Below, piece after piece: positions 5,835 through 47,341 of a DNA stretch of 64,000 nucleotides. The notes beneath the pieces are model-generated. The model searched no databases. It worked only from the letters and a program-made list of their open reading frames with translations, and was not told the DNA's origin. Each line of letters opens with the position of its first letter. The stretch's first letter is position 1. Made by a program: the position numbers and the translations under genes. Source of the DNA: an uncultured Chloroflexia bacterium (GTDB taxonomy: Bacteria; Chloroflexota; Limnocylindria; QHBO01); NCBI GenBank assembly GCA_963783725.1, contig CAWAOJ010000002.1:1684459-1748458 (forward strand). Reading direction: 5' to 3'.

Positions 5835-5843
5835 TGCTAGACT
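5835..5843 (+). promoter_or_regulatory. possible extended -10 element (TGCTAGACT) upstream of nuoA
   Basis: An AT-rich hexamer TAGACT preceded by TGn, 69 nt upstream of the nuoA ATG. I saw no convincing -35. Confidence 0.3.
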
Positions 5844-5911
5844 TGGGGTGCTCGATTGACACGAAAGAGACGCGAGGCCGTGCTCCGCATCGGTCTGGCG
5901 AGGAGTTCTGC

Positions 5912-6271
5912 ATGGACCAGACGAGCCTGATCTACGTCCTCGGGTTCGGGTTCGCGGCGACGACGTTCGTCTTCGGCACGATCCTGTTCTCCTGGCTCAT
6001 CACGCACCGCCGCCAGCGGCCCCAGAAGGGCCTGCCCTACGAGTCCGGGATCGACACCATCGGCGACACCTGGTCGCGCTTCGGGCTCTCCTTCTACCTC
6101 TACGCGCTGCTGTTCGTCGCCTTCGACGTGGAGATCATCTTCGTCTACCTGTGGGCGATCGTGGTGCGGGTGGTGGCGGGACCGGGGATCGTGATGATCG
6201 GCATCTTCCTTGCGATCCTCATGTGGGGCGAGCTGTACGCGTGGAAGAAGGGGGATCTGCGATGGCGCTAG
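5912..6271 (+). CDS. nuoA: NADH-quinone oxidoreductase subunit A
   Basis: ORF 5843-6271 trimmed to ATG 5912. Three TM segments with the ND3/NuoA motifs PYESGID and FDVEIIF. The stop overlaps the nuoB start. Confidence 0.9.
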
Positions 6272-6927
6272 ACACACCCGACCGGACGCATCGCGACCCC
6301 GATTCGGTCGCTCCCGGCGCGGCGCCGCCGCGCATCGTCATTCCGGACGAGGCCGGCGACGACGAGCTCCTGCGCGAGTTCGACATGGAGGATCACCCGC
6401 GCGGCGGGTTCCACGGCCTGCTGGAGGTGATCCCCACCAAGGCCGACTACGTGCTGGACCTGATCCGGGCCAACTCGCTGTGGCCGCTGCTGTCCGGCCT
6501 GTCGTGCTGCGCCATCGAGATGATGAGCACCGCGACCAGCATGAACGACATCGACCGATTCGGGATGTTCCCCTTCCGCGCCAGCCCGCGCCAGGCGGAC
6601 GTGCTGATCGTGGCCGGCACGCTTACGACCAAGATGGCGGGGCCGCTGGTCCGGCTCTGGGAGCAGATGCCCGAGCCCAAGTGGTGCGTCGCCATGGGCA
6701 CCTGCACCACGTCCGGCGGCCGGTTCAAGCGAAGCTACAGCGTGGTGCAGGGCGTGGACCGCGTCATGCCGGTGGACGTCTACGTGCCCGGCTGCCCGCC
6801 GCGCCCGGAGGGCCTGATCTACGGGATGATGAAGCTGCAGGAGCTCGTCAAGCAGCGGCGCGGACAGTGGACCACGTACGTCGACCGCGGCCCGCAGCGC
6901 CAGGCGTGGGAAGGAGACGTTCGCTGA
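6262..6927 (+). CDS. nuoB: NADH-quinone oxidoreductase subunit B
   Basis: N2-cluster Cys motifs [15 protein letters not shown] and [11 protein letters not shown] 6262 overlaps the nuoA stop by 10 nt. Confidence 0.92.
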
Positions 6928-7550
6928 CCGCGCCGTCCATTGCGGGCGCGCTGGTTCGCGCGCTGCTCGACCGGTTTCCGGATGTCGTGACCGAGCTGTG
7001 GACCGACGAGGACACGGTCGAGGTGCAGGTGCCCCGCGACCGCATCGTCGAGACGCTCCGCTCGCTGCGTGACGAGGAGGAGTTCGCCTTCTTCTTCCTG
7101 GCCGATGCCGCGGCAGTGGACTACGGTCCGCAGAACTGGTTCGAGGTCGTCTACCACCTCTACAGCGATCGGCATCCGGCGTGGCTGCGCGTCCGCGTCC
7201 GGGTCGACCGCGCCGATCCGCACGTGCCGACCATCACCGACCTGTGGGAAGGAGCGATGTTCCACGAGCGCGAGATGTACGACATGATGGGCATCACCTT
7301 CGACGGCAACCGCGACCTGCGGCGCATCTTCATGTCGCCCGACTACCGCAGCTTCCCGCAGCGCAAGGACTTCATCCTGCCCGATGACGCCGCCGACTCG
7401 CCGGCGGCGGGCGTGAATCCGCTCGAGCGGCCGGAGACGTGGGACCTCAGCCGCTTCACCGAGCTGCCGCCGGTGGATGCGACGCACCCGGCGACGCAGA
7501 GCGGGGCGGTCGGCGGCCAGACCCTCGCCGACAAGACGAGACCGCGATGA
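6906..7550 (+). CDS. nuoC: NADH-quinone oxidoreductase subunit C
   Basis: 30-kDa subunit motifs ([30 protein letters not shown]). There is no in-frame ATG. Candidate starts are GTG 6906 or CTG 6924 (GGAG plus 7 nt). The start is uncertain. Confidence 0.85.
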
Positions 7551-8830: not shown

Positions 8831-9841
8831 ATGGACCTCTCGCTGCTGCTCGGCGTCGGCCGCTTCGTGCTGGCCACCACGCTGCTGCTGCTCGTCACCG
8901 TCCCGACCGCGTTCATCATCATCTACCTCGAGCTGAAGGTGATCGCGCTGATGCAGCTGCGCATCGGTCCCAACCGGGTCGGGCCGGCGGGCATCTTCCA
9001 GAGTGCGATCCACGGCTTCAAGGTGCTCGCCAAGGAGGACTTCACCCCGGACAACGCCGACCGGCCGGTGTTCACCATGGCGCCCTGGATGGTCTTCATG
9101 GCCGCCGCCATGAGCATGCTGGTCATTCCCTTCGCGCCGGGGCTGGTGGCGGTCGACTCGCAGATCAGCGTGGTCTACTTCTTCGCCATCATCGGCCTGT
9201 CGGTGATCGGCCTGCTCGTCGCCGGCTGGGCGAGCTACAACAAGTACTCGCTGCTCGGGGGCCTGCGCAGCGCGGCGCAGATGGTGAGCTACGAGATCCC
9301 GCTCACCCTCTCCATCGTGGGCGTGGTCGTGCTCACCGGAACGCTCAGCTTCACCAACATCATCGCCTGGCAGGCGGCGCACGGCTGGACGATCCTGTGG
9401 CAGTGGATCGGTCTGCCGGTCTTCTTCATCGCCTCCACCGCCGAGATCAACCGCACCCCCTTCGACATGGTGGAGGCGGACAGCGAGATCGTGGCGGGCT
9501 TCGCCACCGAGTACTCAGGCATGCGCTTCGGGTTCTTCTTCTTCGCCGAGTACGTCAGCCTCTTCATCATGAGCTCGATCCTGGTCACCCTCTTCTTCGG
9601 CGGGTGGCTGGCCCCCTGGCCGTTCCCGGCGCAGCTCGACGGCTTCGTGGGGACCATCTACGGCCTCGTCTGGTTCCTGGCCAAGACCTACCTCTTCGTC
9701 TTCATCTCGATCTGGGCCCGCGCCACGCTGCCTCGCGTCCGCATCGACCAGCTGATGGGGATGGCCTGGAAGGTGCTGCTTCCGCTGGCCCTCGTCAACC
9801 TGTTCATCACGGCCATCGTGGTCGTCGTCTTCAAGCTGTAG
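8831..9841 (+). CDS. nuoH: NADH-quinone oxidoreductase subunit H
   Basis: ND1 family polytopic protein (RIGPNRVGP, PFDMVEADSEIVAGFATEYSGMRF). The ATG follows directly after the nuoD stop. Confidence 0.92.
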   Translation: MDLSLLLGVGRFVLATTLLLLVTVPTAFIIIYLELKVIALMQLRIGPNRVGPAGIFQSAIHGFKVLAKEDFTPDNADRPVFTMAPWMVFMAAAMSMLVIPFAPGLVAVDSQISVVYFFAIIGLSVIGLLVAGWASYNKYSLLGGLRSAAQMVSYEIPLTLSIVGVVVLTGTLSFTNIIAWQAAHGWTILWQWIGLPVFFIASTAEINRTPFDMVEADSEIVAGFATEYSGMRFGFFFFAEYVSLFIMSSILVTLFFGGWLAPWPFPAQLDGFVGTIYGLVWFLAKTYLFVFISIWARATLPRVRIDQLMGMAWKVLLPLALVNLFITAIVVVVFKL

Positions 9842-9854
9842 GAGTCTGACCGGC

Positions 9855-10700
9855 ATGGCCGTTCCCGGGATTGGCATCGCCAAGGGCTTCGCCACCACGC
9901 TGCGCAACTTCTTCACGCCGAAGGTGACGCGGCAGTACCCCGAGGTCCGGCCCCAGATGTCGGACCGCTGGCGCGGTCGGCTGGACCTGATCTACGACCC
10001 GTTCGGATCGCACAAGTGCGAGGTCTGCTTCCAGTGCTCCATGGTCTGCCCGGTGGAGGCCATCGACATGAGCGGCTTCGACTCGCGGGGCGATCGCATC
10101 CGCTACGGGATGCCGGAGATCTACGACGAGCGCAAGGATCCGAACGCCTACCGGCGCAGCGGGCTGCCGGCGCGGCCGATGCGGAACCCTGCCCGATGGG
10201 ACGAGGCCATCGACACCGATTTCGTGAACGGGGTCATCGACGGCTTCCGTGCCCGGCCCGAGGCGCTGGTCGCGATCTTCGGGGCGGTGCAGGCGCGCTA
10301 CGGCTACCTTCCGGAGCGGGCGCTGCGCCTGATCAGCGACCGGCTCACGATCCACTGGGCGCAGGTCTTCGGCGCCGCCGGACTCGGCGGCTTCCGACTG
10401 CTGCCCGCGGAGGGCCACCTCATCACGGTCTGCGACTGCGCCGCGTGCCGCTTCGGCGGCGGACGCGAGGTGCTGCGCGCGCTGCGCGACGACCTGGGCA
10501 TCGAGCCCGGCGAGTCGACCGCCGACGGCACCTTCACCTTGCAGACCGGCAGCGACGTGGGCGCGGGCGCCATGGCGCCGGCCATCCGGGTCGATACCCT
10601 GGTCTACGGCCCGGTCACCGCGGCGCAGGCGCTGCACCTCGTCGGGCTGCGACGTGACGCGGCCGCCGAGCCCTCGGCACAGCCGGCGAGTCGGCGCTGA
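9855..10700 (+). CDS. chimeric subunit: N-terminal half of NuoI (one 4Fe-4S motif) fused to a NuoE-like thioredoxin-fold domain
   Basis: Residues 1-91 align with the NuoI/Nqo9 N-half (GFATTLRNFFTPKVTRQYPE, CEVCFQCSMVCP). The second Cys motif is absent. Residues ~115-281 look like NuoE (VQARYGYLPERAL, VCDCAAC, GIEPGESTADGTFTL). Confidence 0.8.
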   Translation: MAVPGIGIAKGFATTLRNFFTPKVTRQYPEVRPQMSDRWRGRLDLIYDPFGSHKCEVCFQCSMVCPVEAIDMSGFDSRGDRIRYGMPEIYDERKDPNAYRRSGLPARPMRNPARWDEAIDTDFVNGVIDGFRARPEALVAIFGAVQARYGYLPERALRLISDRLTIHWAQVFGAAGLGGFRLLPAEGHLITVCDCAACRFGGGREVLRALRDDLGIEPGESTADGTFTLQTGSDVGAGAMAPAIRVDTLVYGPVTAAQALHLVGLRRDAAAEPSAQPASRR

Positions 10701-10702
10701 GC

Positions 10703-12079
10703 ATGGCCGAACAGCAGAACGTCCTCTCCCCGCAGATCCGGCTGCTCGAGGGCGGGGAGCGCCGCCTGCTCACCGAGCTCGGGCGGGTCGACCCCGCTTC
10801 GATCGAGAGCTATCGCGCGGCGGGCGGCTACGCCGGCCTCGAGCGCGCCGTGTCCAAGCTCGGCCCGGAGGGCGTGATCGCCGAGATCGAGAAGGCAGGG
10901 CTCCGTGGGCGCGGCGGCGCCGGCTACCCGACGGCCGACAAGTGGCGCGCCGCGCGCGAGCAGCCGGCCGAGCGCAGGGTCGTGGTGGCGAACCTGATGG
11001 GCGCCGATCCGACCGCTCTCGGCGACCGGGCGCTGGCCGAAGGAAACCCGCACCTGGTGCTCGAGGGGCTTCTGATCGCCGCATTCGCGACCGGTGCCAG
11101 CGAGGCGTACATCGCCGTTCGGCGCGATTGGACCGTGGCGCTCGAGCGGCTGCAGTCCGCGGTCGCGGAGGCGGAGCGCGCCCGCTTCGCCGGCTACCTG
11201 GTGCTCGGAACGGACTTCAGCGTGCAGGTCGTCGTGCGCGAGGGTTCGGGCGCCATGGTGGCGGGCGAGGAGACGGCGCTGCTGGCCGCCCTGGTCGGCG
11301 ATCGCGGTATGCCCGTCATCCGCCCGCCGTACCCGTCACAGCGCGGGATGCGCGGAGATCCGACGGTGGTGCAGAACGCGGAGACCCTGGCGCACGCGGC
11401 ATGGATCATGTCGCACTCGGCGGAGGCCTTCTCGTCGGTCGGCTCCGAGCGGAGCAGGGGCACCAAGCTGGTGACGATCTTCGGGCGCGTCGCCGAGCCC
11501 GGCGTGCTCGAGGTCCCGCTCGGCATGCCGCTGATCGACATCCTGGCGGCCGCGGGCGGCGGGACCGATACGACCAAGGCGCTCTTCCTCGGCGGCGCCG
11601 GCGGCGGCGCCGTCGATGCGGCGAGCCTCAACACGGCGTACGACTACGAGCCGCTGGCCGAGCGGGGCGTGGCGATGGGGCTGGGGTCGATCCTGGTCAC
11701 CGACCGCTCGACGTGCATGGTGGACACCGCGCGCTTCTTCCTCGATCACTCGGCGCGCGAGGCGTGCGGGAAGGCGGTTCCGTGCCGCATCGGCACCCGC
11801 CGTCTCGTCGAGGCGCTCGACCGCGTGCTCGCCGCGACGCCTCGGCCGAACGACTTCACCCTGCTGCGCGAGCTGTCGCGCAAGATGCGCGACACGGCGC
11901 TCTGCCATCTCGAGGCCCGTGCGCCCGCGCCGATGCTCACCACGCTCGCCCTGTTCCCCGAGGAGTACCGCGCCCACGCCGAGCGCGGCGTGTGCCTGGC
12001 CGGCTCGTGCGACGCGCCCGCGGTGGCGCCACTCCTCTCGCCACTCGCCGACATCGACGCGGGTACGATAGCGACATGA
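10703..12079 (+). CDS. NuoF-like subunit (divergent flavoprotein subunit)
   Basis: GLRGRGGAGYPTADKW, GEETALL, PPYPSQRG..GDPTVVQNAETL and EACGKAVPCRIG are colinear with NuoF/Nqo1, but several cofactor motifs are altered (see findings). Confidence 0.8.
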   Translation: MAEQQNVLSPQIRLLEGGERRLLTELGRVDPASIESYRAAGGYAGLERAVSKLGPEGVIAEIEKAGLRGRGGAGYPTADKWRAAREQPAERRVVVANLMGADPTALGDRALAEGNPHLVLEGLLIAAFATGASEAYIAVRRDWTVALERLQSAVAEAERARFAGYLVLGTDFSVQVVVREGSGAMVAGEETALLAALVGDRGMPVIRPPYPSQRGMRGDPTVVQNAETLAHAAWIMSHSAEAFSSVGSERSRGTKLVTIFGRVAEPGVLEVPLGMPLIDILAAAGGGTDTTKALFLGGAGGGAVDAASLNTAYDYEPLAERGVAMGLGSILVTDRSTCMVDTARFFLDHSAREACGKAVPCRIGTRRLVEALDRVLAATPRPNDFTLLRELSRKMRDTALCHLEARAPAPMLTTLALFPEEYRAHAERGVCLAGSCDAPAVAPLLSPLADIDAGTIAT

Positions 12080-14460
12080 CCTTCGGAACCGGCAACGGCG
12101 ACGGCACCGGCAACGGCCACGCGACCGGCAGCCTCACCGACTACACCCCCGTCTGGCCGATGGTGCCCGGCACGCGCAAGCTCTCGGTCACCGTCAACGG
12201 CCAGCGCGTCGAGGCCGAAGAGGGCCAGACGATCCTGCAGGCCTGCCGGGTGCTCGGGATCGAGGTGCCGACGCTCTGCTACGAGCCGAAGCTGGCGCCC
12301 TTCGGGGCGTGCCGCATCTGCGTCGTCGAGGTCGAGGGCCGCGAGGACACTCCCATCTCGTGCGGAACGACGATCGAGGAGGGGATGGTCATCACCACCC
12401 ACTCCGAGCGCCTGGTCGAGAACCGGCGCATGGTCCTGGAGCTGATCTTCAGCGACCACGACGCGTACTGCCTGCCGCCCTGCCAGTTCAAGTGCCCGAC
12501 CAGGGTCGACATCCCCGGCTACCTCAAGCAGAACACGCTGGGCAACTGGGAAGAGGCGACGCGGATCCTGAAGCGGTCGCTCCCGTTCCCGGCCATCCTC
12601 GGCCGCGTCTGCCCGGCGCCGTGCGAGACGCACTGCCGTCGCGAAGAGGTCGACACCGCCATCGCCATCCGCGACTCGCATCGGTACTGCGCCGACCGGG
12701 TGCTGGAGGTGGATGCGCCCGCGCCCATCCCGTGGCCCAAGGACCCGCCCACCGGGAAGCGCGTGGCCGTCATCGGTGCGGGCCCGGCGGGCCTGGCCAA
12801 CGCGTACTACATGCAGCTGCGCGGGCACGAGTGCGACGTCTTCGAAGCCGAGCCGGAGCAGGGCGGCATGCTGCGCTACGGCATCCCGCAGTACCGGCTG
12901 CCGAAGGGCTGGATGGATCGCGAGCTCAACCACGTCTGGGAGCTGGGCGCGCGGCTCAGGCCGAACATGCGCCTCGGCCGTGACTTCCACCTCGCCGACC
13001 TGCTGCCCGAGTACGACGCGATCTACATCAGCATCGGCTGCTACCAGTCCAACGTGCTGGGCATTCCCGGCGAGGACGCCGACGGGATGGTGAACGCGCT
13101 GGAGAACCTGTACAACTCGACCCGCGGGGTGAGCGTCCCCAAGCTGCGCGACGCGCGCGTGGTCGTCATCGGCGGCGGGTTCACTGCCATCGACTGCACG
13201 CGGACCAGCATCCGGCAGGGGGCGCGCGAGGTGACGCTGGTCTACCGCCGGGACCTGAAGGACATGCCCGCCCAGGACGAGGTGCACGAGGCGATCGAGG
13301 AGGGGGCGCGGGTCATCTTCCAGGCGGCGCCGACCAGGATCGTCACCGACGAGAACAACCGCGTCACGGGCGTGGAGTTCCAGCGCATGAAGCTCGGCGA
13401 GCCCGACGAGAAGGGGCGGCGCCGGCCGGAGCCGATGCCCGGCACCGAGTTCGTGGTCGAATGCGACACGGTGCTCGGCGCCATCGGCCAGGGGCCCGAC
13501 CTGCACTGGATCGAGTCGGAGCCGGACGAGATCCGCTCCGCGCTCGAGGTGAGCCGGCGCGGGACCCTGGTCAGCGAGGAGAACATCTTCCGCACCAACG
13601 TGCCGAAGGTCTTCGTCTCGGGCGACGTGCGCACCGGCTCGGCCACCGTGGTCGAGGCCATCGGCGAGGGCCGTCGCGCCTCGTACGCCATGGACTACTG
13701 GCTGCGCGGGCACGACCTCGACGACCCGCAGGTGCGGCGCATCGTCTCCGAGCCGCAGCCCAGCTTCCTCACCATCGTGCCGTTCACCGACGACGTGAAG
13801 GAGCCGCGCGCGGTCATGGGCAAGGCCGGCTCGGACGAGCGACGCGACAACTTCGTCGAGTACGAGTACGGCTACACCCACGACCAGGCGATGGCCGAGG
13901 CGAGCCGCTGCCTGCAGTGCACCTGCGAGGCGATCGGCCACTGCGACCTGCGCGAGGCGGCCATCGAGTACGAGACGACGCTCAACATGGCGATCGACGA
14001 GCGCTCGATCCAGGACAACCCGTACGTCGGCTACAACCACGGCTATGGCCGCGACGAGACGCACTCGTTCATCCTGCGCGACTACTCGCGCTGCATCGAC
14101 TGCGGCCGGTGCGCCACCGTCTGCAAGGAGATCGTCGGCTCCGGCTGCTACGACTTCATCGGCAAGGGGATGGACTCGCTGGTCACCACGGCCGACTTCG
14201 TGTCGCTCAACGAGACGCCGTGCGTCTCGTGCGGAAGGTGTGCCGAGACGTGCCCGGTCGGGGCGCTGATGCCGCGGCCGCGCACGCTGGAGACCTACCA
14301 GCTCGACGTGAGCCGCTGCATCTTCTGCGGCATGTGCGCCGACGCGTGCCCGTACGACGCGCTGCGCTGCGGACCCGAGTTCGAGTTCAGCGAGTACCAG
14401 CGCGACCTGCCGATGCTCGACATCCTGGAGATGTCCGACCGGGAGCGACCGACCCGCTGA
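12076..14460 (+). CDS. chimeric subunit: NuoG-type 2Fe-2S domain + GltD-like FAD/NAD(P)H oxidoreductase + 2x[4Fe-4S] + C-terminal half of NuoI
   Basis: The start is ATG 12076, in an ATGA overlap with the NuoF-like stop. The upstream part of the long ORF 10654-14460 is shadow frame over nuoF. Domains in order:
- 2Fe-2S region: LSVTVNGQ...CRICVVEV.
- GltD Fe-S region: CLPPCQFKCP...GRVCPAPCETHC.
- Dinucleotide fold: KRVAVIGAGPAGL.
- Ferredoxin motifs: CIDCGRCATVC and CVSCGRCAETCP.
- NuoI C-half: RCIFCGMCADACP...PEFEFSEYQRDL. Confidence 0.8.
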   Translation: MTFGTGNGDGTGNGHATGSLTDYTPVWPMVPGTRKLSVTVNGQRVEAEEGQTILQACRVLGIEVPTLCYEPKLAPFGACRICVVEVEGREDTPISCGTTIEEGMVITTHSERLVENRRMVLELIFSDHDAYCLPPCQFKCPTRVDIPGYLKQNTLGNWEEATRILKRSLPFPAILGRVCPAPCETHCRREEVDTAIAIRDSHRYCADRVLEVDAPAPIPWPKDPPTGKRVAVIGAGPAGLANAYYMQLRGHECDVFEAEPEQGGMLRYGIPQYRLPKGWMDRELNHVWELGARLRPNMRLGRDFHLADLLPEYDAIYISIGCYQSNVLGIPGEDADGMVNALENLYNSTRGVSVPKLRDARVVVIGGGFTAIDCTRTSIRQGAREVTLVYRRDLKDMPAQDEVHEAIEEGARVIFQAAPTRIVTDENNRVTGVEFQRMKLGEPDEKGRRRPEPMPGTEFVVECDTVLGAIGQGPDLHWIESEPDEIRSALEVSRRGTLVSEENIFRTNVPKVFVSGDVRTGSATVVEAIGEGRRASYAMDYWLRGHDLDDPQVRRIVSEPQPSFLTIVPFTDDVKEPRAVMGKAGSDERRDNFVEYEYGYTHDQAMAEASRCLQCTCEAIGHCDLREAAIEYETTLNMAIDERSIQDNPYVGYNHGYGRDETHSFILRDYSRCIDCGRCATVCKEIVGSGCYDFIGKGMDSLVTTADFVSLNETPCVSCGRCAETCPVGALMPRPRTLETYQLDVSRCIFCGMCADACPYDALRCGPEFEFSEYQRDLPMLDILEMSDRERPTR

Positions 14461-14503
14461 CGCCCGGCGCCCGCCGGCGCAGTGGCCGCTGGGGGAGCCC
14501 TCC

Positions 14504-15889
14504 ATGAGCGTTCACACCATCGTCAGCTCGCAGCGACTCGATCGGCCCCTCGACGAGGTCTTCGCGTTCTTCGCCACACCGGAGAACCTGAGCCGCCTGA
14601 CGCCCGACGGCCTCGGCTTCGAGCTCCGCTCGGACGACACCGAGATGCGCACGGGCCTCGTCATCGAGTACCGCATCAGGCCGCTGCTCGGGATCGGCCT
14701 GGGATGGACCAGCCGCATCAGCCGCTACGTGCCGGGCTCGGAGTTCGAGGACGTCCAGCTGCGCGGGCCGTACCGCAGCTGGCGCCATCGCCATCGGTTC
14801 AGCGCGGAGGACGGCGGGACGCGGGTTGACGACGAGGTCTCGTACGAGCTGCCGTTCGGCGTGCTGGGCGACCTGGTCGAGCGCTTCCTGGTGCGACCGC
14901 GGCTGCAGCAGATCTTCGGCTACCGCGGCGCGATGATGGATCGCCTTCTCTCAGCCCGCAGCCAGACGGAACGACCGATGACGGTCGCGGTGGCCGGAGG
15001 CTCCGGCTTCGTCGGCGGCGAGATCGCGACCGAGCTCCATCGGCGCGGCAATAGGGTGATCGTCCTCAGCCACGACCCCGACTCGCCCGCCGACGACCTG
15101 CCCGCGGGGATCGAGGTGCGCCACGTGGACGTGACCTCCGGCGCCGGGCTGCCCGAGGCGCTGGAGGGCGTGGAGGCCCTGGTCATCGCGCTGGCCTTCC
15201 CGAACCTGCCGATGGAGGATCCGCGGCGCGGCCGGACGTTCGAAGCGGTGGACGCCGCGGGCACCGAGCGTCTCGCCGCGGCGGCGCGCACCGCAGGCGT
15301 GCAGCGCCTCGCCTACATCTCCGGCGCGGGCGCCGCTCCCGACGCCGAGCGGCACTGGTTCCGCGCCAAGTGGCGCGCGGAGGAGGCGATCCGCGCGTCG
15401 GCGATCCCCTACACCATCGTTCGTCCGACGTGGATCTTCGGCCCGCGCGACGTCGCGCTCAACCGGTTCCTGGGCTTCGCGCGCACCCTGCCCTTCGTCC
15501 CGCTGACGAACTTCGGCGGCCAGCGTCTCGCCCCTGTGTTCGTCGGCGACGTGGCCGCGCTCGTGGCGGACTCGCTGGTCGATCCGGCCGCCCGCGACGC
15601 GATCTTCGAGATCGGCGGCCCGGAGACGATGACAATGCGCGACATCGTGCGCCGCACGCTCAGGGTCGCTGGACTGCGGCGACCGCTGCTTCCCGTCCCG
15701 CCGCAGCTGGTCAAGGTCGCCGCCTTCTTCCTGCAGTACCTGCCCGGGCGCCTCCTGACGCCGGAGGCGGTCGACTTCGTGAACCAGCCGGCCGTGGTGG
15801 ACACCGCGCCCCTCCTCGCGCGCATGCCCCGCCGCCTCACGCCGCTCGAGGAGGGACTGGCCACCTACCTGCTGCCGCGCCGGGGCTGA
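14504..15889 (+). CDS. SRPBCC (START/COQ10-like) domain fused to NDUFA9-like atypical SDR
   Basis: The N-terminal ~150 aa is SRPBCC-like (RPLDEVFAFFATPENLSRLTP...GPYRSWRHRHRF). The remainder is an NAD(P)-binding Rossmann fold (VAGGSGFVGGEIA, IVRPTWIFGPRD, PVFVGDVA) of the NDUFA9/NmrA-like type. Confidence 0.7.
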   Translation: MSVHTIVSSQRLDRPLDEVFAFFATPENLSRLTPDGLGFELRSDDTEMRTGLVIEYRIRPLLGIGLGWTSRISRYVPGSEFEDVQLRGPYRSWRHRHRFSAEDGGTRVDDEVSYELPFGVLGDLVERFLVRPRLQQIFGYRGAMMDRLLSARSQTERPMTVAVAGGSGFVGGEIATELHRRGNRVIVLSHDPDSPADDLPAGIEVRHVDVTSGAGLPEALEGVEALVIALAFPNLPMEDPRRGRTFEAVDAAGTERLAAAARTAGVQRLAYISGAGAAPDAERHWFRAKWRAEEAIRASAIPYTIVRPTWIFGPRDVALNRFLGFARTLPFVPLTNFGGQRLAPVFVGDVAALVADSLVDPAARDAIFEIGGPETMTMRDIVRRTLRVAGLRRPLLPVPPQLVKVAAFFLQYLPGRLLTPEAVDFVNQPAVVDTAPLLARMPRRLTPLEEGLATYLLPRRG

Positions 15890-15931
15890 CCGTCGCCCGC
15901 GCGGGCCGCGAAGGGCCGCGCAGGGCGGTCG

Positions 15932-16531
15932 GTGCGGAGTGGGTACGCTAGAATCGGGCGGGCCGCTTGCGTCACAGCGAGCCGGCTTCTGTCTGCTCGA
16001 AACTCCAGCGGGAGCTTCATTCTGGATATCACCGGCATCCTGTTCGTTGTGCTCGCCGTCGGCGTGGTGGGCGGTGGCCTCGCGGTGGTCACGCTGCACA
16101 ACGTCATCCATTCCGCCATCGCCATGATGGTCTGCTTCGGCTCCCTGGCCGGGATGTACGCGCTCCTCGGCGCACCCATCGTGGCGGCGGCCCAGGTGCT
16201 CATCTACCTCGGCGCAATCAGCGTCCTGATCATCTTCGCCATCATGCTCACCCAGGCCGGCGACGCGACCCTTCCCGCGCCGTTCCATCGCCAGGGGCCG
16301 GTGGCGGCCGCAATGGCGCTGCTGATCGTGGTGCTGGTCGGATGGGCGGTGCTGCAGACCGATTGGAGCCACGCCGCGACGGCCGTATCGGTCAACCTGC
16401 AGCGGCTCGCCGCGGCCCTCTTCACCGACTACGCGCTGCCGTTCGAGCTGATCAGCCTCCTGCTGCTGGCGGCGATCATCGGCGCGATCTACCTCGCGCG
16501 ACGCCCCGAAGAGGACGAGCGGGCGCGCTGA
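15932..16531 (+). CDS. nuoJ: NADH-quinone oxidoreductase subunit J
   Basis: ND6 family (VIHSAIAMMVCF...AAAQVLIYLGAISVLIIFAIML). The longest ORF starts at GTG 15932. The conserved part begins near residue 30, where CTG 16022 follows GGAG by 7 nt. The start is uncertain. Confidence 0.85.
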   Translation: MRSGYARIGRAACVTASRLLSARNSSGSFILDITGILFVVLAVGVVGGGLAVVTLHNVIHSAIAMMVCFGSLAGMYALLGAPIVAAAQVLIYLGAISVLIIFAIMLTQAGDATLPAPFHRQGPVAAAMALLIVVLVGWAVLQTDWSHAATAVSVNLQRLAAALFTDYALPFELISLLLLAAIIGAIYLARRPEEDERAR

Positions 16532-16836
16532 TGGGACTCGCCGGATACCTCATCGTCTCCTTGCTGCTGTTCGCCATCGGCGCGTTCGGCTTCCTGGCCC
16601 GACGGAACGCGATCCTGATGCTGATCTGCATCGAGCTGATGCTCAACGGAGTCAACCTGAGCCTGGTCGCCTTCAACGCGTACATGCCCGGCGGCGCGGT
16701 GAACGGCGCGATCTTCGCGCTGATGATCATGGCCGTGGCCGCGGCCGAGGCGACCGTCGGCCTCGCCCTGGTGATCGCCATCATCCGCACCCGTCAGACC
16801 GCCGAGGTCGACGAATACCACGACCTGAAGGAGTAG
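16531..16836 (+). CDS. nuoK: NADH-quinone oxidoreductase subunit K
   Basis: 101-aa ND4L family protein (ICIELMLNGVNL, AAAEATVGLALV). The ATG overlaps the nuoJ stop (TGATG). Confidence 0.92.
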   Translation: MGLAGYLIVSLLLFAIGAFGFLARRNAILMLICIELMLNGVNLSLVAFNAYMPGGAVNGAIFALMIMAVAAAEATVGLALVIAIIRTRQTAEVDEYHDLKE

Positions 16837-16839
16837 GCC

Positions 16840-19034
16840 GTGGACCTGCTGATCGTCCTCATCCCGGCGCTGCCGATCGTCGGATTCCTGTTCACGGTGG
16901 TCGTCGGCCGCCGGCTCGACCGCGTCCCGGTGCACGGCCACGCCGTCGACTCGCATGACCACCCGGGTGACGCTCAGGCGGCCGATGCGAGCGCGCACGA
17001 GCACGGTGACGACACCGGGTTCCGGGCCGTGCCGACCGAGGCGGAGCAGGCAGCGACCTCACCGCACGCCGGTCACGCCGACGACCTGGCCAACGCCCAG
17101 GGCGCCGACGGCGTCATACCGGCCGACCTGAACGACGGCATCGGCCAGTCGGGGCACGTCGTACCCGGCGGACCGCGGCCGCGCTACCTGAGCTGGATCG
17201 TCCCCACCGGCCTGGTCGCCATCGCCTGGGTGCTCAGCATGGTGGTGTTCGTCAACGTCATCTTCGGCGGCAACACCTACCACGTGACGGTCTACGAGTG
17301 GATCGCCGCCGGCGACTTCCACATCAACATCGCGTTCTACGTGGACGCGCTGACGGCCATGCTGCTGCTGGTCGTGAGCAGCGTGGGACTGCTGGTCCAC
17401 GTCTACTCCATCGGCTACATGGATGGCGACCGCGGGCTGTGGCGCTTCTTCGCCTACCTGAACCTTTTCATGTTCAGCATGCTGCTGCTGGTCATGGGCG
17501 ACAACTACCTGATGCTCTTCGTCGGGTGGGAGGCGGTCGGACTGTGCAGCTACCTCCTGATCGGGTTCTGGTACAAGAAGCCGTCCGCCGCGGGCGCGGC
17601 CAAGAAGGCGTTCGTGGTGAACCGCATCGGCGACGTCGGCTTCGGCCTGGGGATCATGATGATCTGGGTCCTGCTGGGAACCCTGAGCTTCACCGATGTC
17701 TTCGACAAGGTCGGCGGGCTGGACCAGACCCAGGTCACGATCATCGCCCTTCTCCTCTTCGCCGGCGCGGTCGGCAAGAGCGCGCAGTTCCCGCTGCACG
17801 TCTGGCTGCCCGACGCGATGGAGGGCCCGACGCCGGTCAGCGCCCTGATCCACGCCGCGACCATGGTCAACGCCGGCGTCTACATGGTCGCCCGCTCGAA
17901 CCCGATCTTCTCCCAGGCGCCGGTCGCGATGTGGGTCGTGGCGGGGATCGGCATCTTCACCGCCATCTTCGCCGCGGCCATCGCGCTGACCCAGAACGAC
18001 ATCAAGAAGGTGCTTGCCTACTCGACGGTCAGCCAGCTCGCGTACATGTTCACCGCGCTGGGCATCGGCGCGTGGGCGGCCGCGATCTTCCACCTCGTCA
18101 GCCACGGCTTCTTCAAGGGGCTGCTCTTCATGGGCTCCGGCTCCGTGATCCACGGGGCGGGCGGCGAGCAGGACATGCGATTCCTGGGCGGCATGCGCCA
18201 GAAGATGCGCTGGACCTACTGGATCATGGTCGTCGGGTCGCTCTCCCTGGCCGGCGTGCCGATCCTTTCGGGCTTCTTCAGCAAGGACGAGATCCTGGGC
18301 GAGGCGTTCAACCGCGGCTACCCGATCTTCTACCTGGTCGGCACCGTCGTCGCCTTCATGACGGCCTTCTACAGCTTCCGCATGATCTACATGACCTTCC
18401 ACGGTGAGTGGCGCGGGCCGCAGGAGGCGTGGCGGCACGTGCACGAATCGGTGCCGACCATGGTCGCGCCCATCGCCATCCTCGCCATTCCGACCGTGCT
18501 GGTCGGGCTGCTGCTGGGGCTGCCGCCGGAGGGGGGCGTCATCCACAGCTGGCTCGGGCGCGTGTTCGAGCATGCCGAGGAGGCGGGCATCCAGCCGGGG
18601 TCGCTCGCCGCCGCCGGGCACCACTTCGAGTTCGTGGGCGTCGGCGGGCTGCTGCTTCTGGTCGGCGCCACGGTGGCCGTCCTCGGCGTGCTGCTCGCCT
18701 ACCGCTGGTACGTCACCGACCCGCAGGCGTCGGCACGATTCGTGGACAGCATCCCGCTCGGCCTCGGCCCGGGCATGTACCGCGCCAGCCTCAACCGCTA
18801 CTACGTCGACGACCTCTACCAGCTCATCTTCGCGCGCGGCGGCGTGATCGTGGGCGAAGCGCTGTGGTGGTTCGACGCCAAGATCATCGACGGCGCGGTG
18901 AACGGTGCGGGCTGGCTGGCACGAAACATGGGCTCCGGCTTGCGCCGGTCACAGACCGGACGCGTCGAGAACTACGGGCTCGGCATGGCGGCGGGGCTGG
19001 TGCTCGTGCTGGTGGCGTACCTGGTGTGGCACTG

Positions 19035-19035
<1 letters not shown>
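16840..19035 (+). CDS. nuoL: NADH-quinone oxidoreductase subunit L
   Basis: ND5 family (WEAVGLCSYLLIGFW, KSAQFPLHVWLPDAMEGPTPVSALIHAATMV) with a C-terminal extension region and a GTG start. It carries a ~90-aa His/Asp-rich insertion after TM1. Confidence 0.92.
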
Positions 19036-20558
<1,523 letters not shown>

Positions 20559-20565
20559 GGCCGCG

Positions 20566-28378: not shown

Positions 28379-28732
28379 ATGCCAACCGGCCGCGACAGCG
28401 GCGAGGACCTGCGTCGGCTTCGCACGCTCTACCGGGCGCTCGGGGACGACACCCGTTTGCGGATCATCGCGCTCCTCGCGGAGCTGGGGCCGACGCCGGT
28501 GAACGAGCTCTCGTCGCGCGTCGTCCTTTCGCAGCCGCTCATCAGCTGGCACCTGCGCGTGCTCCGCCTGGCGGGCGTGATCGAGACCGATCGACAGGGT
28601 CGCACGGTGATCTGCCGGCTGCGGCGGGCCGCGTTCGACGAGCTGCACGAGTCGGAGGCGCGGCTGATCTCCGGCACATCGGAGCTCGGCGTGGCACCGC
28701 CGGCCCAGGCGAAGGTCGCCGATGTCGGCTAG
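28379..28732 (+). CDS. ArsR/SmtB-family winged-helix transcriptional regulator
   Basis: LGDDTRLRIIALLAELGPTPVNELSSRVVLSQPLISWHLRVLRLAGVI is a typical ArsR HTH. There is no CXC metal site. Confidence 0.85.
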   Translation: MPTGRDSGEDLRRLRTLYRALGDDTRLRIIALLAELGPTPVNELSSRVVLSQPLISWHLRVLRLAGVIETDRQGRTVICRLRRAAFDELHESEARLISGTSELGVAPPAQAKVADVG

Positions 28733-31594: not shown

Positions 31595-31598
31595 GCGC

Positions 31599-47236: not shown

Positions 47237-47341
47237 TCCGTGCTCGAATGGCCTCGCTCCGCGTGCGCGCACGGAGTCGCGTGTGGTCGCGGGCGGCCCC
47301 GCGTTCACGGGCGCCCGAAGGTGTCGCACGGCAAGGTGGCG

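What the first reader, a model, noticed from the sequence alone, without database searches (positions are those of the whole stretch)
12076..14460. The NuoG position is occupied by a 2Fe-2S + GltD-like flavoenzyme + ferredoxin chimera with no molybdopterin-like domain
What the sequence shows, in order along the protein:
- The N-terminus is a NuoG-type plant-ferredoxin domain (LSVTVNGQRVEAEEGQTILQAC...CRICVVEV).
- Residues ~125-560 (about 12450-13750) are colinear with the glutamate synthase small subunit (GltD) / NfnB family. This includes the Fe-S region CLPPCQFKCP...GRVCPAPCETHC, the dinucleotide fold KRVAVIGAGPAGL...GGMLRYGIPQYRLPK, and a second fold VVVIGGGFTAIDC.
- Next come a Cys-rich stretch (RCLQCTCEAIGHCDL), two ferredoxin motifs, and the NuoI C-half.
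- The large C-terminal molybdopterin-oxidoreductase-like domain of canonical NuoG is absent.

Inference: electrons may enter from NADPH through an FAD site, or the module may resemble Nfn/bifurcating enzymes, rather than using classical NADH/FMN input.
Basis: partly seen in the sequence, partly recalled or inferred. Interest (0 to 1): 0.65.

Follow-up and report, generated by a model that had tools for sequence, protein, structure and literature searches.

The report
Complex I with Nfn-type NADPH module
In this soil bacterium (Chloroflexota, Limnocylindria) the usual NADH-input genes of respiratory complex I are replaced by a cassette related to NADPH-oxidising Nfn/Stn transhydrogenases that sits in the middle of the nuoI gene. 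NuoI is therefore made as two halves fused to two other proteins, which suggests a proton-pumping complex I fed by NADPH.

Summary
ORF 12076-14460 (794 aa) reads, in order: a 2Fe-2S domain, a GltD/NfnL-like FAD/NADPH domain with two [4Fe-4S] sites, a 2x[4Fe-4S] ferredoxin domain and the C-terminal half of NuoI. It has no molybdopterin-type domain.

- **Not an artefact.** Over 80 genomes and independent metagenome contigs carry the same uninterrupted ORF.
- **Closest relatives.** These are not GltD or NuoG but the A subunit of Bfu-type NfnABC/StnABC transhydrogenases (PDB 9BOV, 8OH5, 9N5U), colinear over residues 36-755. The neighbouring "NuoF" is likewise closest to NfnB/StnB.
- **New finding.** The preceding "NuoE" gene carries the missing N-terminal half of NuoI. 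Joined in silico, the two halves align gap-free with NuoI. The operon therefore reads nuoA-B-C-D-H-[I_N::E]-F-[NfnA-like::I_C]-J-K-L-M-N, as if an Nfn cassette had been inserted inside nuoI of an 11-subunit complex I.
- **Distribution.** The same layout occurs in Limnocylindria (Chloroflexota) and Thermoleophilia (Actinomycetota). In Thermoleophilia the B and C subunits keep all bifurcation hallmarks. In Limnocylindria they are trimmed and remodelled.
- **Most likely function.** NADPH -> FAD -> Fe-S chain -> split NuoI -> N2 -> menaquinone. This is inferred, not shown.
- **Literature.** I found no description of this arrangement.

The parts
5843..6271 (+). nuoA
   Evidence: NCBIfam NuoA models
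6262..6927 (+). nuoB (N2 cluster subunit). The start at the ATG with an upstream GGGGGA is my choice.
   Evidence: TIGR01957, 223 bits, above its cutoff. The CC...C...CP ligands are present. It is one of the two most conserved genes of the operon, with 95.6% median identity.
6906..7550 (+). nuoC (start approximate)
   Evidence: Pfam Complex1_30kDa; TIGR01961
7547..8830 (+). nuoD (its ATG overlaps the nuoC stop codon)
   Evidence: NuoD models. The HPSTHG and DY quinone-site motifs are present.
8831..9841 (+). nuoH. Here it follows nuoD directly, as in 11-subunit operons.
   Evidence: NF004741, 336 bits, above its cutoff
9855..10109 (+). N-terminal half of NuoI (aa 1-85 of the 'NuoE' gene), carrying the first motif C55xxC58xxC61xxxC65P
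   Evidence: TIGR01971 positions 1-66 of 121, E 4e-13. The motif is invariant in 71 species. The half rejoins the C-half without a gap.
10206..10700 (+). NuoE/NfnC-like thioredoxin-like domain, in the same polypeptide as the NuoI N-half. Its ligand set is altered: C193, C195 and C198 are kept, and the second Cys pair is replaced by Asp and Gly.
   Evidence: Pfam 2Fe-2S_thioredx; motif survey; comparison with Thermoleophilia
10703..12079 (+). NuoF/NfnB-like flavoprotein core. It has no N-terminal thioredoxin-like domain and no C-terminal 2x[4Fe-4S] domain. NGDEGDPGAF is changed to NLMGADPTAL, and the N3/B1 motif reads CxxAxxC...C.
   Evidence: Closest to 9bov_B, 8oh5_B and 9n5u_B (396-409 bits) against about 265 bits for complex I NuoF. 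Motif survey over 72 species; alignment.
12076..14460 (+). The finding: a single ORF of 794 aa fusing an NfnA/StnC-like subunit to the NuoI C-half
12175..12405 (+). [2Fe-2S] domain (A1/N1b equivalent; C68, C79, C82, C96)
   Evidence: Pfam Fer2_4. The ligands are invariant in two phyla.
12472..12708 (+). Fer4_20 domain with the two [4Fe-4S] sites A6 and A7. A7 is assigned C140, C179, C183 and H202.
   Evidence: Pfam. Alignment to StnC and Csac NfnA, with ligands as described in PMC11829005. 100% median identity among relatives.
12760..13671 (+). FAD and NAD(P)H Rossmann domains (GAGPAGL; GGGFTAIDC...VYRRD)
   Evidence: Pfam Pyr_redox_2. Model pLDDT is mostly 80-97, with TM 0.78-0.79 to NfnL, NfnB and GltD.
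13891..13953 (+). Cys-rich stretch C612xxC615xC617x5C623. By motif arithmetic it completes cluster A6 and the His-ligated cluster A3 (H128, C132, C617, C623).
   Evidence: Invariant in 91 sequences. It aligns to 'RCLECGC...C' of StnC/NfnA. The assignment of ligands to clusters is my inference.
14071..14280 (+). 2x[4Fe-4S] ferredoxin domain (A2 and A4 equivalents; motifs C673.. and C716..)
   Evidence: Pfam Fer4_7 and Fer4_Nqo3; alignment to NfnA/StnC; 94% median identity
14281..14460 (+). C-terminal half of NuoI (C748xxC751xxC754xxxC758P followed by FEFSEYQRDL). It replaces the formate-dehydrogenase-like domain at the place of its first (A5) cluster motif.
   Evidence: TIGR01971 positions 71-112, E 6e-17. 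HMMER aligns C748 and C751 onto the A5 motif of 9bov_A and 8oh5_C. 96.6% median identity.
14504..15889 (+). START (COQ10-family) + NDUFA9-like SDR gene. It is lineage-specific cargo in the variable gap between the chimera and nuoJ and is probably not part of the conserved system.
15932..16531 (+). nuoJ
   Evidence: Pfam Oxidored_q3
16531..16836 (+). nuoK
   Evidence: Pfam Oxidored_q2; start codon survey
16840..19035 (+). nuoL
   Evidence: Pfam Proton_antipo_N and Proton_antipo_M; tblastn
19035..20558 (+). nuoM. This is the true frame; the ORF 18905-20569 is spurious.
20566..22029 (+). nuoN
   Evidence: TIGR01770, 433 bits, above its cutoff

Best explanation
**What it is (shown).** The gene encodes an NfnA/StnC-type NADPH-oxidising flavo-iron-sulfur subunit. 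Its formate-dehydrogenase-like C-terminal domain has been replaced by the C-terminal half of NuoI. The N-terminal half of NuoI is fused to the front of the upstream NuoE/NfnC-like gene. Together with a trimmed NfnB-like 'NuoF', these genes form an Nfn(Bfu)-derived cassette lying inside nuoI of an otherwise 11-subunit-type complex I operon: A-B-C-D-H-[I_N::E]-F-[NfnA-like::I_C]-J-K-L-M-N.

**How it most likely works (inferred).**
- The two NuoI halves reassemble into the usual two-cluster ferredoxin (N6a/N6b) on NuoB, NuoD and NuoH. This bolts the Nfn-like module onto the quinone module.
- NADPH reduces the FAD of the NfnL/GltD-like domain.
- Electrons pass through A7 and A6 to the His-ligated cluster A3, then to A2.
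- They leave through A4, which is a dead-end side branch in soluble NfnABC, into N6a/N6b, then N2 and menaquinone. This drives proton pumping.

**The second branch.** The path A2-A1-B1-flavin leads to the NuoF-like subunit.
- In Thermoleophilia this subunit is a complete Bfu core.
- In Limnocylindria, including this window, it is non-bifurcating and remodelled. It may still take NADH, or it may be mainly structural.
For: **Architecture**
- Domain scans.
- Colinearity with 9bov_A, 8oh5_C and 9n5u_A over aa 36-755: E 2e-169, 1e-150 and 2e-138. The same three are the top fold matches.
- The GltD-like part alone scores NfnA 366/345/310 bits, above NfnB/NfnL at 277/265 and GltD at 236.
- NuoF scores 396-409 bits to NfnB/StnB and about 265 bits to true NuoF.

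**Split NuoI**
- 'NuoE' aa 6-81 match NuoI model positions 1-66. Chimera aa 736-777 match positions 71-112.
- The rejoined halves align gap-free with TYKY/NuoI (7ar7_I residues 24-139, E 7e-26) and reach 110.4 bits on TIGR01971, against a cutoff of 113.

**Conservation**
- The same gene order is found in Limnocylindria and Thermoleophilia.
- Every predicted cluster ligand of the chimera, and H202, is invariant across 91 sequences from both phyla.
- The YRR motif (Y390, R391, R392) is invariant within the Limnocylindria alignment and conserved in at least 90% of the two-phylum set.
- The segments on the proposed path are, with NuoB (95.6%), the most conserved of the operon: Fer4_20 100%, NuoI_C 96.6%, ferredoxin domain 94.3%. 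NuoE and NuoF are among the least conserved, at about 71%.

**Wiring**
- In Csac NfnA the path is FAD-A7-A6-A3-A2-A1-B1-FMN. A4 and A5 form a dead-end branch off A2, and the NfnC N-terminal domain sits in a cleft next to the Fdh-like domain (PMC11829005).
- NuoI_C is spliced exactly at the A5 motif, and I_N is fused to the NfnC-like N-terminus. The two fusion points should therefore be spatial neighbours.

**Other support**
- The quinone module is canonical.
- Metatranscriptome contigs of relatives lie on the gene.
Against: - No biochemical data exist for any member, so donor specificity and direction are inferred from homology and motifs.
- AlphaFold2 gave no usable model of residues 616-794 (pLDDT below 50). 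The contact of A4 with the NuoI clusters is therefore not modelled.
- NuoE and NuoF are still under purifying selection (about 71% identity). They keep the FMN phosphate loop RGRGGxG(Y/F)P, GEETAL, three of the four N3 Cys and an invariant CxCxxC in NuoE. A working flavin/NADH site cannot be excluded.
- I could not search whole genomes for a separate nuoI, nuoG or a second complex I. Only 64 kb of the window genome and +/-10 kb of related genomes were visible.
- One Thermoleophilia-type member (P0273) has a degenerate NADPH fingerprint.
Confidence: 0.6

Rival explanations
1. It is still essentially an NADH:quinone oxidoreductase. NADH enters at the flavin of the NuoF-like subunit, as in ordinary complex I. 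The NfnL/GltD-like FAD domain is a side entrance, a regulatory sensor of NADPH/NADP+, or an electron buffer.
For: - NuoE and NuoF are retained in every genome, translationally coupled and under purifying selection.
- The FMN phosphate loop, GEETAL and the A1 [2Fe-2S] ligands that lead to NuoF are conserved.
Against: - In all Limnocylindria the ribityl-binding Asp of NADE/NGDE is Met, Ile or Phe, and the second N3 Cys is Ala or Thr.
- The Tyr of GAGAY is variable (Y, L, F or M).
- NuoE has lost its second Cys pair.
- NuoE and NuoF are among the least conserved soluble parts, whereas the FAD-side clusters are the most conserved.
Confidence: 0.2
2. It runs mainly in reverse or as a coupled transhydrogenase. 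Proton-motive force drives electrons from menaquinol (or NADH) to NADP+, supplying NADPH for biosynthesis. It would thus take the place of PntAB.
For: - The ancestor-like enzymes (Nfn/Stn) are reversible NADPH/NADH/ferredoxin balancers (PMC10482914, PMC11829005).
- A three-ended Fe-S network connecting FAD, flavin and quinone is predicted.
Against: - Nothing in the sequence indicates direction.
- The hosts are MAGs from soils and waters, and I did not examine their metabolism.
- Complex I reversal is known but is not usually the main mode.
Confidence: 0.1
3. It is an electron-bifurcating or confurcating 'Nuo-Bfu'. NADPH, NAD(H) and ferredoxin are coupled at the flavin/B1/C1 site, as in soluble NfnABC, with quinone as a further partner.
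For: - The Thermoleophilia version keeps a full BfuB (N-terminal thioredoxin-like domain, canonical FMN, NADH and B1 motifs, C-terminal 2x[4Fe-4S] domain) and a BfuC with all four Cys.
- Schut et al. predicted membrane-bound Nuo-Bfu enzymes in other phyla (PMC9304861).
Against: In this window and in all Limnocylindria the ferredoxin-binding C-terminal domain and the N-terminal domain of the B subunit are absent. One B1 Cys and two C1 Cys are lost. According to PMC9304861, lack of the B2-B5 sites marks the non-bifurcating homologues.
Confidence: 0.05
4. It is an artefact or a coincidence: two genes joined by an assembly error, or a soluble Nfn-like enzyme that merely lies among nuo genes while a normal NuoI is encoded elsewhere.
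For: None was found. The only gap in the evidence is that whole genomes could not be searched for another nuoI.
Against: - The same ORF occurs in more than 80 genomes of two phyla and in independent assemblies without indels.
- The two NuoI halves are exactly complementary and highly conserved.
- The genes are translationally coupled by overlapping start and stop codons.
Confidence: 0.02

Closest known systems
NfnA / StnC, the A subunit of Bfu-type NfnABC (= StnABC) NADPH:NAD+/ferredoxin transhydrogenases (C. saccharolyticus 9BOV, S. ovata 8OH5, T. sibiricus 9N5U)
   Same: - Colinear over aa 36-755: the N-terminal [2Fe-2S] domain, the NfnL/GltD-like FAD/NADPH domain with two [4Fe-4S] sites inserted into the His-cluster motif, the Cys-rich 'RCLxCxC...C' stretch and the 2x[4Fe-4S] ferredoxin domain.
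- It is encoded directly after NuoE-like and NuoF-like genes.
   Different: - It lacks the whole Fdh/NuoG-like C-terminal domain (about 450 aa) with cluster A5, and carries the NuoI C-half there instead.
- The A7 ligand is His202 rather than the Lys reported as strictly conserved.
- It is embedded in a nuo operon, and its partner B subunit is trimmed.
- It occurs in MAGs from soils and waters rather than the anaerobes in which Nfn/Stn was characterised. This contrast is my inference from the sample sources.
NuoG / Nqo3 / NDUFS1 (75-kDa subunit of complex I)
   Same: - N-terminal [2Fe-2S] domain (E about 1e-20 to many NuoG chains).
- The His-cluster motif and the ferredoxin-like domain (weak Fer4_Nqo3 match).
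- It follows NuoF in a nuo operon.
   Different: - No molybdopterin-like domain.
- The His-cluster motif is interrupted by a 484-aa flavoprotein insert.
- It keeps the second ferredoxin cluster (A4) that NuoG lacks.
- TIGR01973 scores 98.6 bits against a cutoff of 470.
NuoI / Nqo9 / TYKY
   Same: The two halves together cover model positions 1-112 of 121. They carry both CxxCxxCxxxCP motifs, the N-terminal 'KxVTxQYPE...RGR' segment and the C-terminal 'FExxxYxRxDL' segment.
   Different: - NuoI is made as two polypeptides, each fused to another redox protein.
- The loop between the motifs is the break point, and a short strand ((R/T)Y(D/Q)LD) appears to be present in both halves, most clearly in Thermoleophilia.
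Predicted 'Nuo-Bfu' complexes (Geobacter, Deferribacteres, Planctomycetes, Nitrospirae; Schut et al. 2022, PMC9304861)
   Same: Complex I whose NADH module is of the Bfu (HydABC-like) type and is encoded in the middle of the nuo cluster.
   Different: - As described there, those are 14-subunit enzymes whose BfuABC module replaces NuoEFG. No split NuoI and no NADPH-binding A subunit are mentioned.
- Here the A subunit is Nfn-type (NADPH), NuoI is split, and in Limnocylindria the B subunit lacks the Bfu hallmarks.
GltD (glutamate synthase small subunit), NfnB/NfnL, SudA, DPD N-terminal half
   Same: The fold and cofactor sites of aa 133-545: two [4Fe-4S] sites, FAD and NADPH.
   Different: - This is a domain-level relationship only.
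- All family cutoffs are missed.
- No GltB or NfnA/S partner gene is adjacent.

Membership tests
NuoG (TIGR01973) | Whole-protein score above the curated cutoff (470 bits) | tested here: not met
   98.6 bits; only aa 38-132 match
NuoG | C-terminal molybdopterin-oxidoreductase-like domain | tested here: not met
   No Molybdopterin or Molydop_binding hit in Pfam. The protein ends 36 residues after the last Cys motif (C758).
NuoG | N-terminal [2Fe-2S] (N1b) with four Cys | tested here: met
   Fer2_4, E 7e-21. C68, C79, C82 and C96 are invariant.
NfnA/StnC (BfuA of Nfn-Bfu) | Domain order: [2Fe-2S] N-terminal domain, NfnL/GltD-like FAD/NADPH domain, ferredoxin clusters | tested here: met
   One uninterrupted alignment of aa 36-755 to 9bov_A 4-699 and aa 35-759 to 8oh5_C 3-700. 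Foldseek ranks 1-4.
NfnA/StnC | Fdh/NuoG-like C-terminal domain (about 450 aa) with cluster A5 | tested here: not met
   The protein is 794 aa against 953-1178 aa. The alignments stop at the A5 motif.
NfnA/StnC | A7 cluster ligated by three Cys and a strictly conserved Lys (K170) | tested here: not met
   The aligned residue is His202, invariant in 91 sequences. The Lys is as described in PMC10482914 and PMC11829005.
NfnA/StnC | NADPH oxidation at FAD | not testable with these tools
   The motifs GAGPAGL, GGGFTAIDC and VYRRD are conserved. Activity is untested.
Bfu family (bifurcating BfuBC core) | BfuB with the extra N-terminal domain and the C-terminal 2x[4Fe-4S] domain (sites B2-B5) | tested here: not met
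   The window NuoF aligns only to residues 99-527 of 584 in 9bov_B. Pfam finds no Fer4 or thioredoxin-like domain. The feature is met in Thermoleophilia.
Bfu family | Flavobicluster: FMN, B1 with four Cys, C1 with four Cys | tested here: not met
   B1 reads CxxAxxC...C in 69 of 72 species and Thr in the other 3. The second Cys pair of C1 is replaced.
NuoI (TIGR01971) | One polypeptide with two CxxCxxCxxxCP motifs, scoring above 113 bits | tested here: not met
   The chimera alone covers positions 71-112 (55.6-61.4 bits) and 'NuoE' alone covers positions 1-66 (48.9 bits). The rejoined halves reach 110.4 bits over positions 1-112.
GltD (TIGR01317 / TIGR01318) | Score above the cutoff and an adjacent GltB partner | tested here: not met
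   330 bits against 483, and 216 against 448. The neighbours are nuo genes.
Complex I, 11-subunit core (NuoABCDHIJKLMN) | All membrane and quinone-module subunits present, with N2 and quinone-site residues | tested here: met
   A, B, C, D, H, J, K, L, M and N are identified. N2 Cys and the NuoD His/Tyr motifs are present. NuoI is present as two halves.

The most novel reading that the evidence does not exclude
In Limnocylindria the NfnL-type FAD is the only working dehydrogenase site, and NuoE/NuoF survive as cofactor-poor scaffold. This would make the enzyme a dedicated proton-pumping NADPH:menaquinone oxidoreductase, built by inserting a soluble transhydrogenase operon into the nuoI gene. 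The former dead-end A4 branch of Nfn would have become the main electron exit. The Thermoleophilia form would be the evolutionary intermediate and might couple NADPH, NAD(H), ferredoxin and quinone in one machine.
Probability: 0.3. Interest if true: 0.9.

Novelty: new variant of a known kind. Interest (0 to 1): 0.78.

Why it matters
- **A new input module for complex I.** Known input modules are NADH (NuoEFG), F420H2 (FpoF) and ferredoxin (NDH-1); flavodoxin in Campylobacter is recalled from my own knowledge and a paper snippet. An NADPH-oxidising, Nfn-derived module would be a further kind. It would give widespread soil and freshwater bacteria (Limnocylindria, Thermoleophilia) a direct, energy-conserving route from NADPH to the quinone pool.
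- **An unusual evolutionary event.** An essential Fe-S subunit was split by insertion of a three-gene cassette and both halves survived as fusions. The two-lineage series, with a full Bfu core and a reduced core, shows how a soluble bifurcating enzyme can be domesticated by a respiratory complex.
- **A practical consequence for annotation.** Sources that name these genes call them 'FAD-dependent oxidoreductase', 'formate dehydrogenase major subunit' or 'NuoE'. My inference is that genome-based metabolic reconstructions will score complex I in these lineages as lacking NuoG and NuoI.

Tried and rejected
- **Assembly or frameshift artefact.** Rejected.
- **'Three ferredoxin motifs in one domain'.** At first I could not see how three CxxCxxCxxxC motifs would fold. 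This was resolved when the first NuoI motif was found on 'NuoE'.
- **AlphaFold2.** I ran it twice. The shallow alignment gave mean pLDDT 58. The two-phylum alignment gave 70. In both runs residues 616-794 stayed below 50, so no geometry for the A4/NuoI junction could be taken from the models.
- **The START+SDR gene as a conserved NDUFA9-like subunit of this complex.** Rejected as a conserved part. It is absent at this site in 84 related loci, and none of 80 relatives lies near nuo genes.
- **NuoE/NuoF as decaying pseudogene-like relics.** Not supported. They are intact and about 71% conserved, and several motifs are invariant.
- **Homologues of about 815-850 aa in the representative library.** These at first looked like further short chimeras. 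Most end in '...NNIDHCARL', which I read as gene calls cut at a TGA selenocysteine codon of FDH-like enzymes. Only P0273 and its Thermoleophilia family are true chimeras.
- **Literature.** Seven full-text searches found no description of the arrangement. The nearest concepts are the Mbx-like GltD substitution of NuoI (PMC4758237) and Nuo-Bfu (PMC9304861).
- **ORF 18905-20569 as nuoM.** Wrong frame; corrected to 19035-20558.

Full report
**1. The observation**

The window has about 70% G+C, so long spurious ORFs abound. The real gene starts at the ATG at 12076, which overlaps the stop codon of the upstream gene (ATGA), and its stop codon ends at 14460, giving 794 aa.

Pfam finds, in order:
- Fer2_4 at aa 34-110
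- the first 17 positions of the NuoG His-cluster domain at 117-133
- Fer4_20 at 133-211
- Pyr_redox_2 at 229-532
- three 4Fe-4S motifs between 666 and 764

No molybdopterin domain is found. NCBIfam places GltD-family models on 133-545 and the second half of NuoI on 736-777.

The ORF is not an assembly product:
- Thousands of full-length homologues exist.
- 80 genome loci at 85-93% identity, almost all named Candidatus Limnocylindria or Chloroflexota, carry it.
- Contigs from three unrelated soil metagenomes cover 9800-14600 without any indel.
- Metatranscriptome contigs of close relatives lie on the gene. DNA carry-over in those libraries cannot be excluded.

**2. What the protein is related to**

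Against all PDB sequences, the best matches are the A subunits of the Bfu-type NADPH-dependent transhydrogenases:
- Caldicellulosiruptor saccharolyticus NfnA (9bov_A, E 2e-169)
- Sporomusa ovata StnC (8oh5_C, 1e-150)
- Thermococcus sibiricus NfnA (9n5u_A, 2e-138)

Each match is a single alignment covering about aa 36-755 of the window protein and the first 700 or so residues of the target. The entries are identified.

An AlphaFold2 model built on a two-phylum alignment has mean pLDDT 70. It is good for residues 30-615 and unusable beyond 616. It finds the same three proteins first, followed by NfnL, NfnB, GltD and DPD at TM 0.78-0.79 over the flavoprotein part.

The GltD-like part alone scores as follows:

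| Target | Bits |
|---|---|
| NfnA (three structures) | 366 / 345 / 310 |
| NfnB (T. maritima) | 277 |
| NfnL | 265 |
| GltD | 236 |
| DPD | 99 |

The precise family is NfnA/StnC, and the window protein ends where their formate-dehydrogenase-like domain begins.

**3. The surroundings: NuoI is split**

The operon reads nuoA, B, C, D, H, 'E', 'F', chimera, an extra gene, then J, K, L, M, N. Most junctions have overlapping or abutting start and stop codons. No separate nuoG or nuoI is present.

The decisive result is that the 281-aa 'NuoE' protein is itself a fusion:
- Residues 6-81 match the N-terminal half of NuoI (TIGR01971 positions 1-66 of 121, E 4e-13). They include the first motif C55xxC58xxC61xxxC65P.
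- The thioredoxin-like NuoE domain follows at about 118-262.
- The chimera supplies NuoI positions 71-112.

Joining 'NuoE' aa 1-84 to chimera aa 739-794 gives a 140-aa sequence. It aligns without a gap to TYKY/NuoI of solved complex I structures (7ar7_I residues 24-139, E 7e-26) and scores 110.4 bits on TIGR01971, whose cutoff is 113. The two halves are therefore exactly complementary.

This also explains the odd count of three ferredoxin motifs in the chimera. Two belong to the NfnA-type ferredoxin domain. The third pairs with the motif carried by 'NuoE'.

**4. NuoF and NuoE are Nfn-derived and remodelled**

The 458-aa 'NuoF' is closer to NfnB/StnB/HydB (396-409 bits) than to any complex I NuoF (about 265 bits). 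It aligns only to the core of NfnB/StnB (residues about 100-527 of 584). It lacks the N-terminal thioredoxin-like domain and the C-terminal 2x[4Fe-4S] domain.

Across 72 Limnocylindria species:
- The NADH/FMN motif N(A/G)DE(G/S)(D/E)PGxF reads N-L-(M/I)-G-A-D-P-(T/S)-A-L.
- The Tyr of GAGAY varies (Y, L, F or M).
- The N3/B1 motif CxxCxxC is CGKA(V/I)PC in 69 species and has Thr in the other 3.

From general knowledge of Fe-S proteins, CxxXxxC is the classic signature of a [3Fe-4S] site. That reading is my inference.

NuoE keeps an invariant CxCxxC but has lost the second Cys pair, which is replaced by Asp/Glu and Gly.

These proteins are not decaying. They are about 71% identical among species, and several motifs are invariant. 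They are nevertheless among the least conserved soluble parts, whereas the most conserved segments of the whole operon are these:

| Segment | Median identity |
|---|---|
| Fer4_20 domain | 100% |
| NuoI C-half | 96.6% |
| NuoB | 95.6% |
| NfnA-type ferredoxin domain | 94.3% |

**5. A second lineage shows the less derived state**

A search of 1.8 billion cluster representatives showed that the next relatives are 36-44% identical. Most are NfnA-like proteins of 1000-1400 aa. One exception, P0273 (816 aa), has the same NuoI tail.

Its family of about 825-aa proteins belongs to Thermoleophilia (Actinomycetota). The operons have the same order, A-B-C-D-H-[I_N::E]-F-X-J-K-L-M-N. In that lineage:
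- F is a full 636-aa BfuB with an N-terminal thioredoxin-like domain, the canonical NGDEGDPGAF, GAGAFVCGEETAL and ESCGKCVPCR motifs, and the C-terminal 2x[4Fe-4S] domain.
- E has all four Cys.

The Limnocylindria form is therefore a reduced derivative. All predicted ligands of the chimera, and His202, are invariant across 91 sequences of both phyla. The YRR motif is conserved in at least 90% of them.

**6. How it most likely works**

*Shown.* The domain order, the split of NuoI, the gene order, the conservation pattern and the homology to NfnABC.

*From the literature.* In Csac NfnA the electron path is FAD-A7-A6-A3-A2-A1-B1-FMN. [quoted passage not shown] The N-terminal domain of NfnC lies in a cleft next to the Fdh-like domain (PMC11829005).

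*Inferred.*
- By motif arithmetic, the NuoG-type cluster motif H-x3-C-x2-C-x5-C appears here as H128-x3-C132-[484 aa]-C617-x5-C623. The NfnL domain is thus inserted inside that motif. Cluster A6 would use C136, C187, C612 and C615. Cluster A7 would use C140, C179, C183 and His202, where StnC and NfnA have Lys170.
- The NuoI C-half is spliced exactly where the A5 motif lies: HMMER aligns C748 and C751 onto it. The NuoI N-half is attached to the NfnC-like N-terminus. These two points are neighbours in NfnABC, so the halves can meet and form the N6a/N6b ferredoxin in place of the Fdh-like domain.
- The predicted route is then NADPH -> FAD -> A7 -> A6 -> A3 -> A2 -> A4 -> N6a/N6b -> N2 -> menaquinone. 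That the quinone is menaquinone is assumed, not tested here. NuoB and NuoD are canonical.
- The branch A2-A1-B1-flavin to NuoF may still admit NADH. Because the hallmarks of bifurcation are absent in this lineage, I regard it as non-bifurcating.

I put about 0.6 on 'NADPH is a principal physiological donor to this complex I'. The architecture itself I put at about 0.95.

**7. Origin**

The order A-B-C-D-H-...-J-K-L-M-N is that of 11-subunit complex I, which has been reported in Actinobacteria and Chloroflexi (PMC3144371). A single insertion of an nfnC-B-A-type cassette into the inter-motif loop of nuoI explains the arrangement. Both halves seem to retain a copy of a short (R/T)-Y-(D/Q)-L-D strand, most clearly in Thermoleophilia, which hints at a small duplication at the break point. 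This scenario is an inference.

**8. Comparison with what is known**

The nearest published concepts are:
- soluble NfnABC/StnABC
- the predicted 14-subunit 'Nuo-Bfu' of Geobacter and others, for which no split NuoI or NADPH-binding A subunit is described (PMC9304861)
- Mbx-like operons, in which a GltD-like protein replaces NuoI (PMC4758237)

Seven full-text searches found no description of an Nfn-type A subunit in a nuo operon or of a split NuoI. Sources that name these genes call them 'FAD-dependent oxidoreductase', 'formate dehydrogenase major subunit' or 'NuoE'.

I class the finding as a new variant of a known kind: complex I with an alternative input module, and a new member of the Bfu/Nfn family.

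**9. Limits**
- There is no biochemistry for any member.
- There is no reliable model of residues 616-794.
- I could not scan whole genomes for another nuoI or nuoG.
- The donor specificity of the NuoF-like site is open.

Noticed in passing
window 14504-15889 (+): A 461-aa gene lies between the chimera and nuoJ. It joins a START/SRPBCC domain (Pfam Polyketide_cyc, which from memory is the family of COQ10) to an SDR. The SDR's best solved relatives are the NDUFA9/39-kDa accessory subunits of complex I (9g83_P E 4e-24; plant NDUA9 3e-21; mammalian about 1e-16). It is absent at this site in 84 related loci, and none of 80 metagenomic relatives lies near nuo genes. It looks like lineage-specific cargo, but the coincidence is striking.
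   Followed up: partly
gap between the chimera and nuoJ: window 14461-15931; L005-L084: The spacer between the chimera and nuoJ varies from 39 bp to 7.5 kb among close relatives. It carries unrelated genes, some on the opposite strand: a metallophosphoesterase, an MBL-fold hydrolase, a PAS protein, a HAD hydrolase and a Zn-ADH. The 3' edge of the inserted cassette is thus a hot spot for insertions, and nuoJ-N must often have its own promoter.
   Followed up: partly
window 10703-12079 (NuoF-like), aa 355-361 and 401: The N3/B1 cluster motif is CxxAxxC...C (Ala in 69 of 72 species, Thr in 3). This is the classic signature of a [3Fe-4S] rather than a [4Fe-4S] site. If it is real, a higher-potential cluster would sit next to the flavin.
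   Followed up: partly
window 12076-12174 (aa 1-33 of the chimera): The N-terminus is a Gly/Asn/Thr-rich low-complexity stretch (GNGDGTGNGH). Its length varies between close relatives; P0001 has about 17 more residues of GNGSGNG repeats. The true start codon, or a repeat expansion, is unresolved.
   Followed up: no
L001-L003 (Limnocylindrales-type relatives, 60% identity): In this sub-lineage NuoH is 463-465 aa (336 aa in the window) and the chimera has an extra His/Gly-rich C-terminal tail of about 70 aa. Neither extension was examined.
   Followed up: no
P0249, P0287, P0292, P0305, P0325, P0339 (representative library): Many NfnA-like relatives of 812-853 aa all end in '...NN(I/V)DHCARL'. 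This is the place where formate dehydrogenases have selenocysteine. They are probably gene calls cut at a TGA-Sec codon, which suggests selenoprotein FDH-like enzymes with an NfnL domain.
   Followed up: no
P0273 / L086 (Thermoleophilia-type): This one member has a degenerate NADPH fingerprint (GDGFAAAE...WLSPCAR instead of GGGFTAxD...YRR). Its relatives, for example L085, keep the canonical motif.
   Followed up: no
window 18905-20569 versus 19035-20558: The long ORF 18905-20569 has no Pfam hit and is spurious. The true nuoM is in another frame (19035-20558), and its ATG overlaps the nuoL stop codon. This is a caution for ORF-based reading of this 70% G+C sequence.
   Followed up: yes
window 28722-34419 (+): A cluster of a CDP-alcohol phosphatidyltransferase, myo-inositol-1-phosphate synthase, two lipid-A-type acyltransferases and a GT4 glycosyltransferase. 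It resembles phosphatidylinositol-mannoside synthesis, which is better known from Actinobacteria.
   Followed up: no
window 42628-48988: At least two predicted protein O-mannosyltransferase-like membrane proteins lie here, one per strand (PMT/PMT_4TMC at 42628-45258 on the minus strand; TMEM260-like at 47231-48988 on the plus strand). An 890-aa ORF between them (44699-47371, minus strand) has no Pfam hit.
   Followed up: no
window 22034-23605 (+): The trehalose-6-phosphate synthase gene (otsA) follows nuoN directly. A trehalose phosphatase lies near the operon in L003.
   Followed up: no
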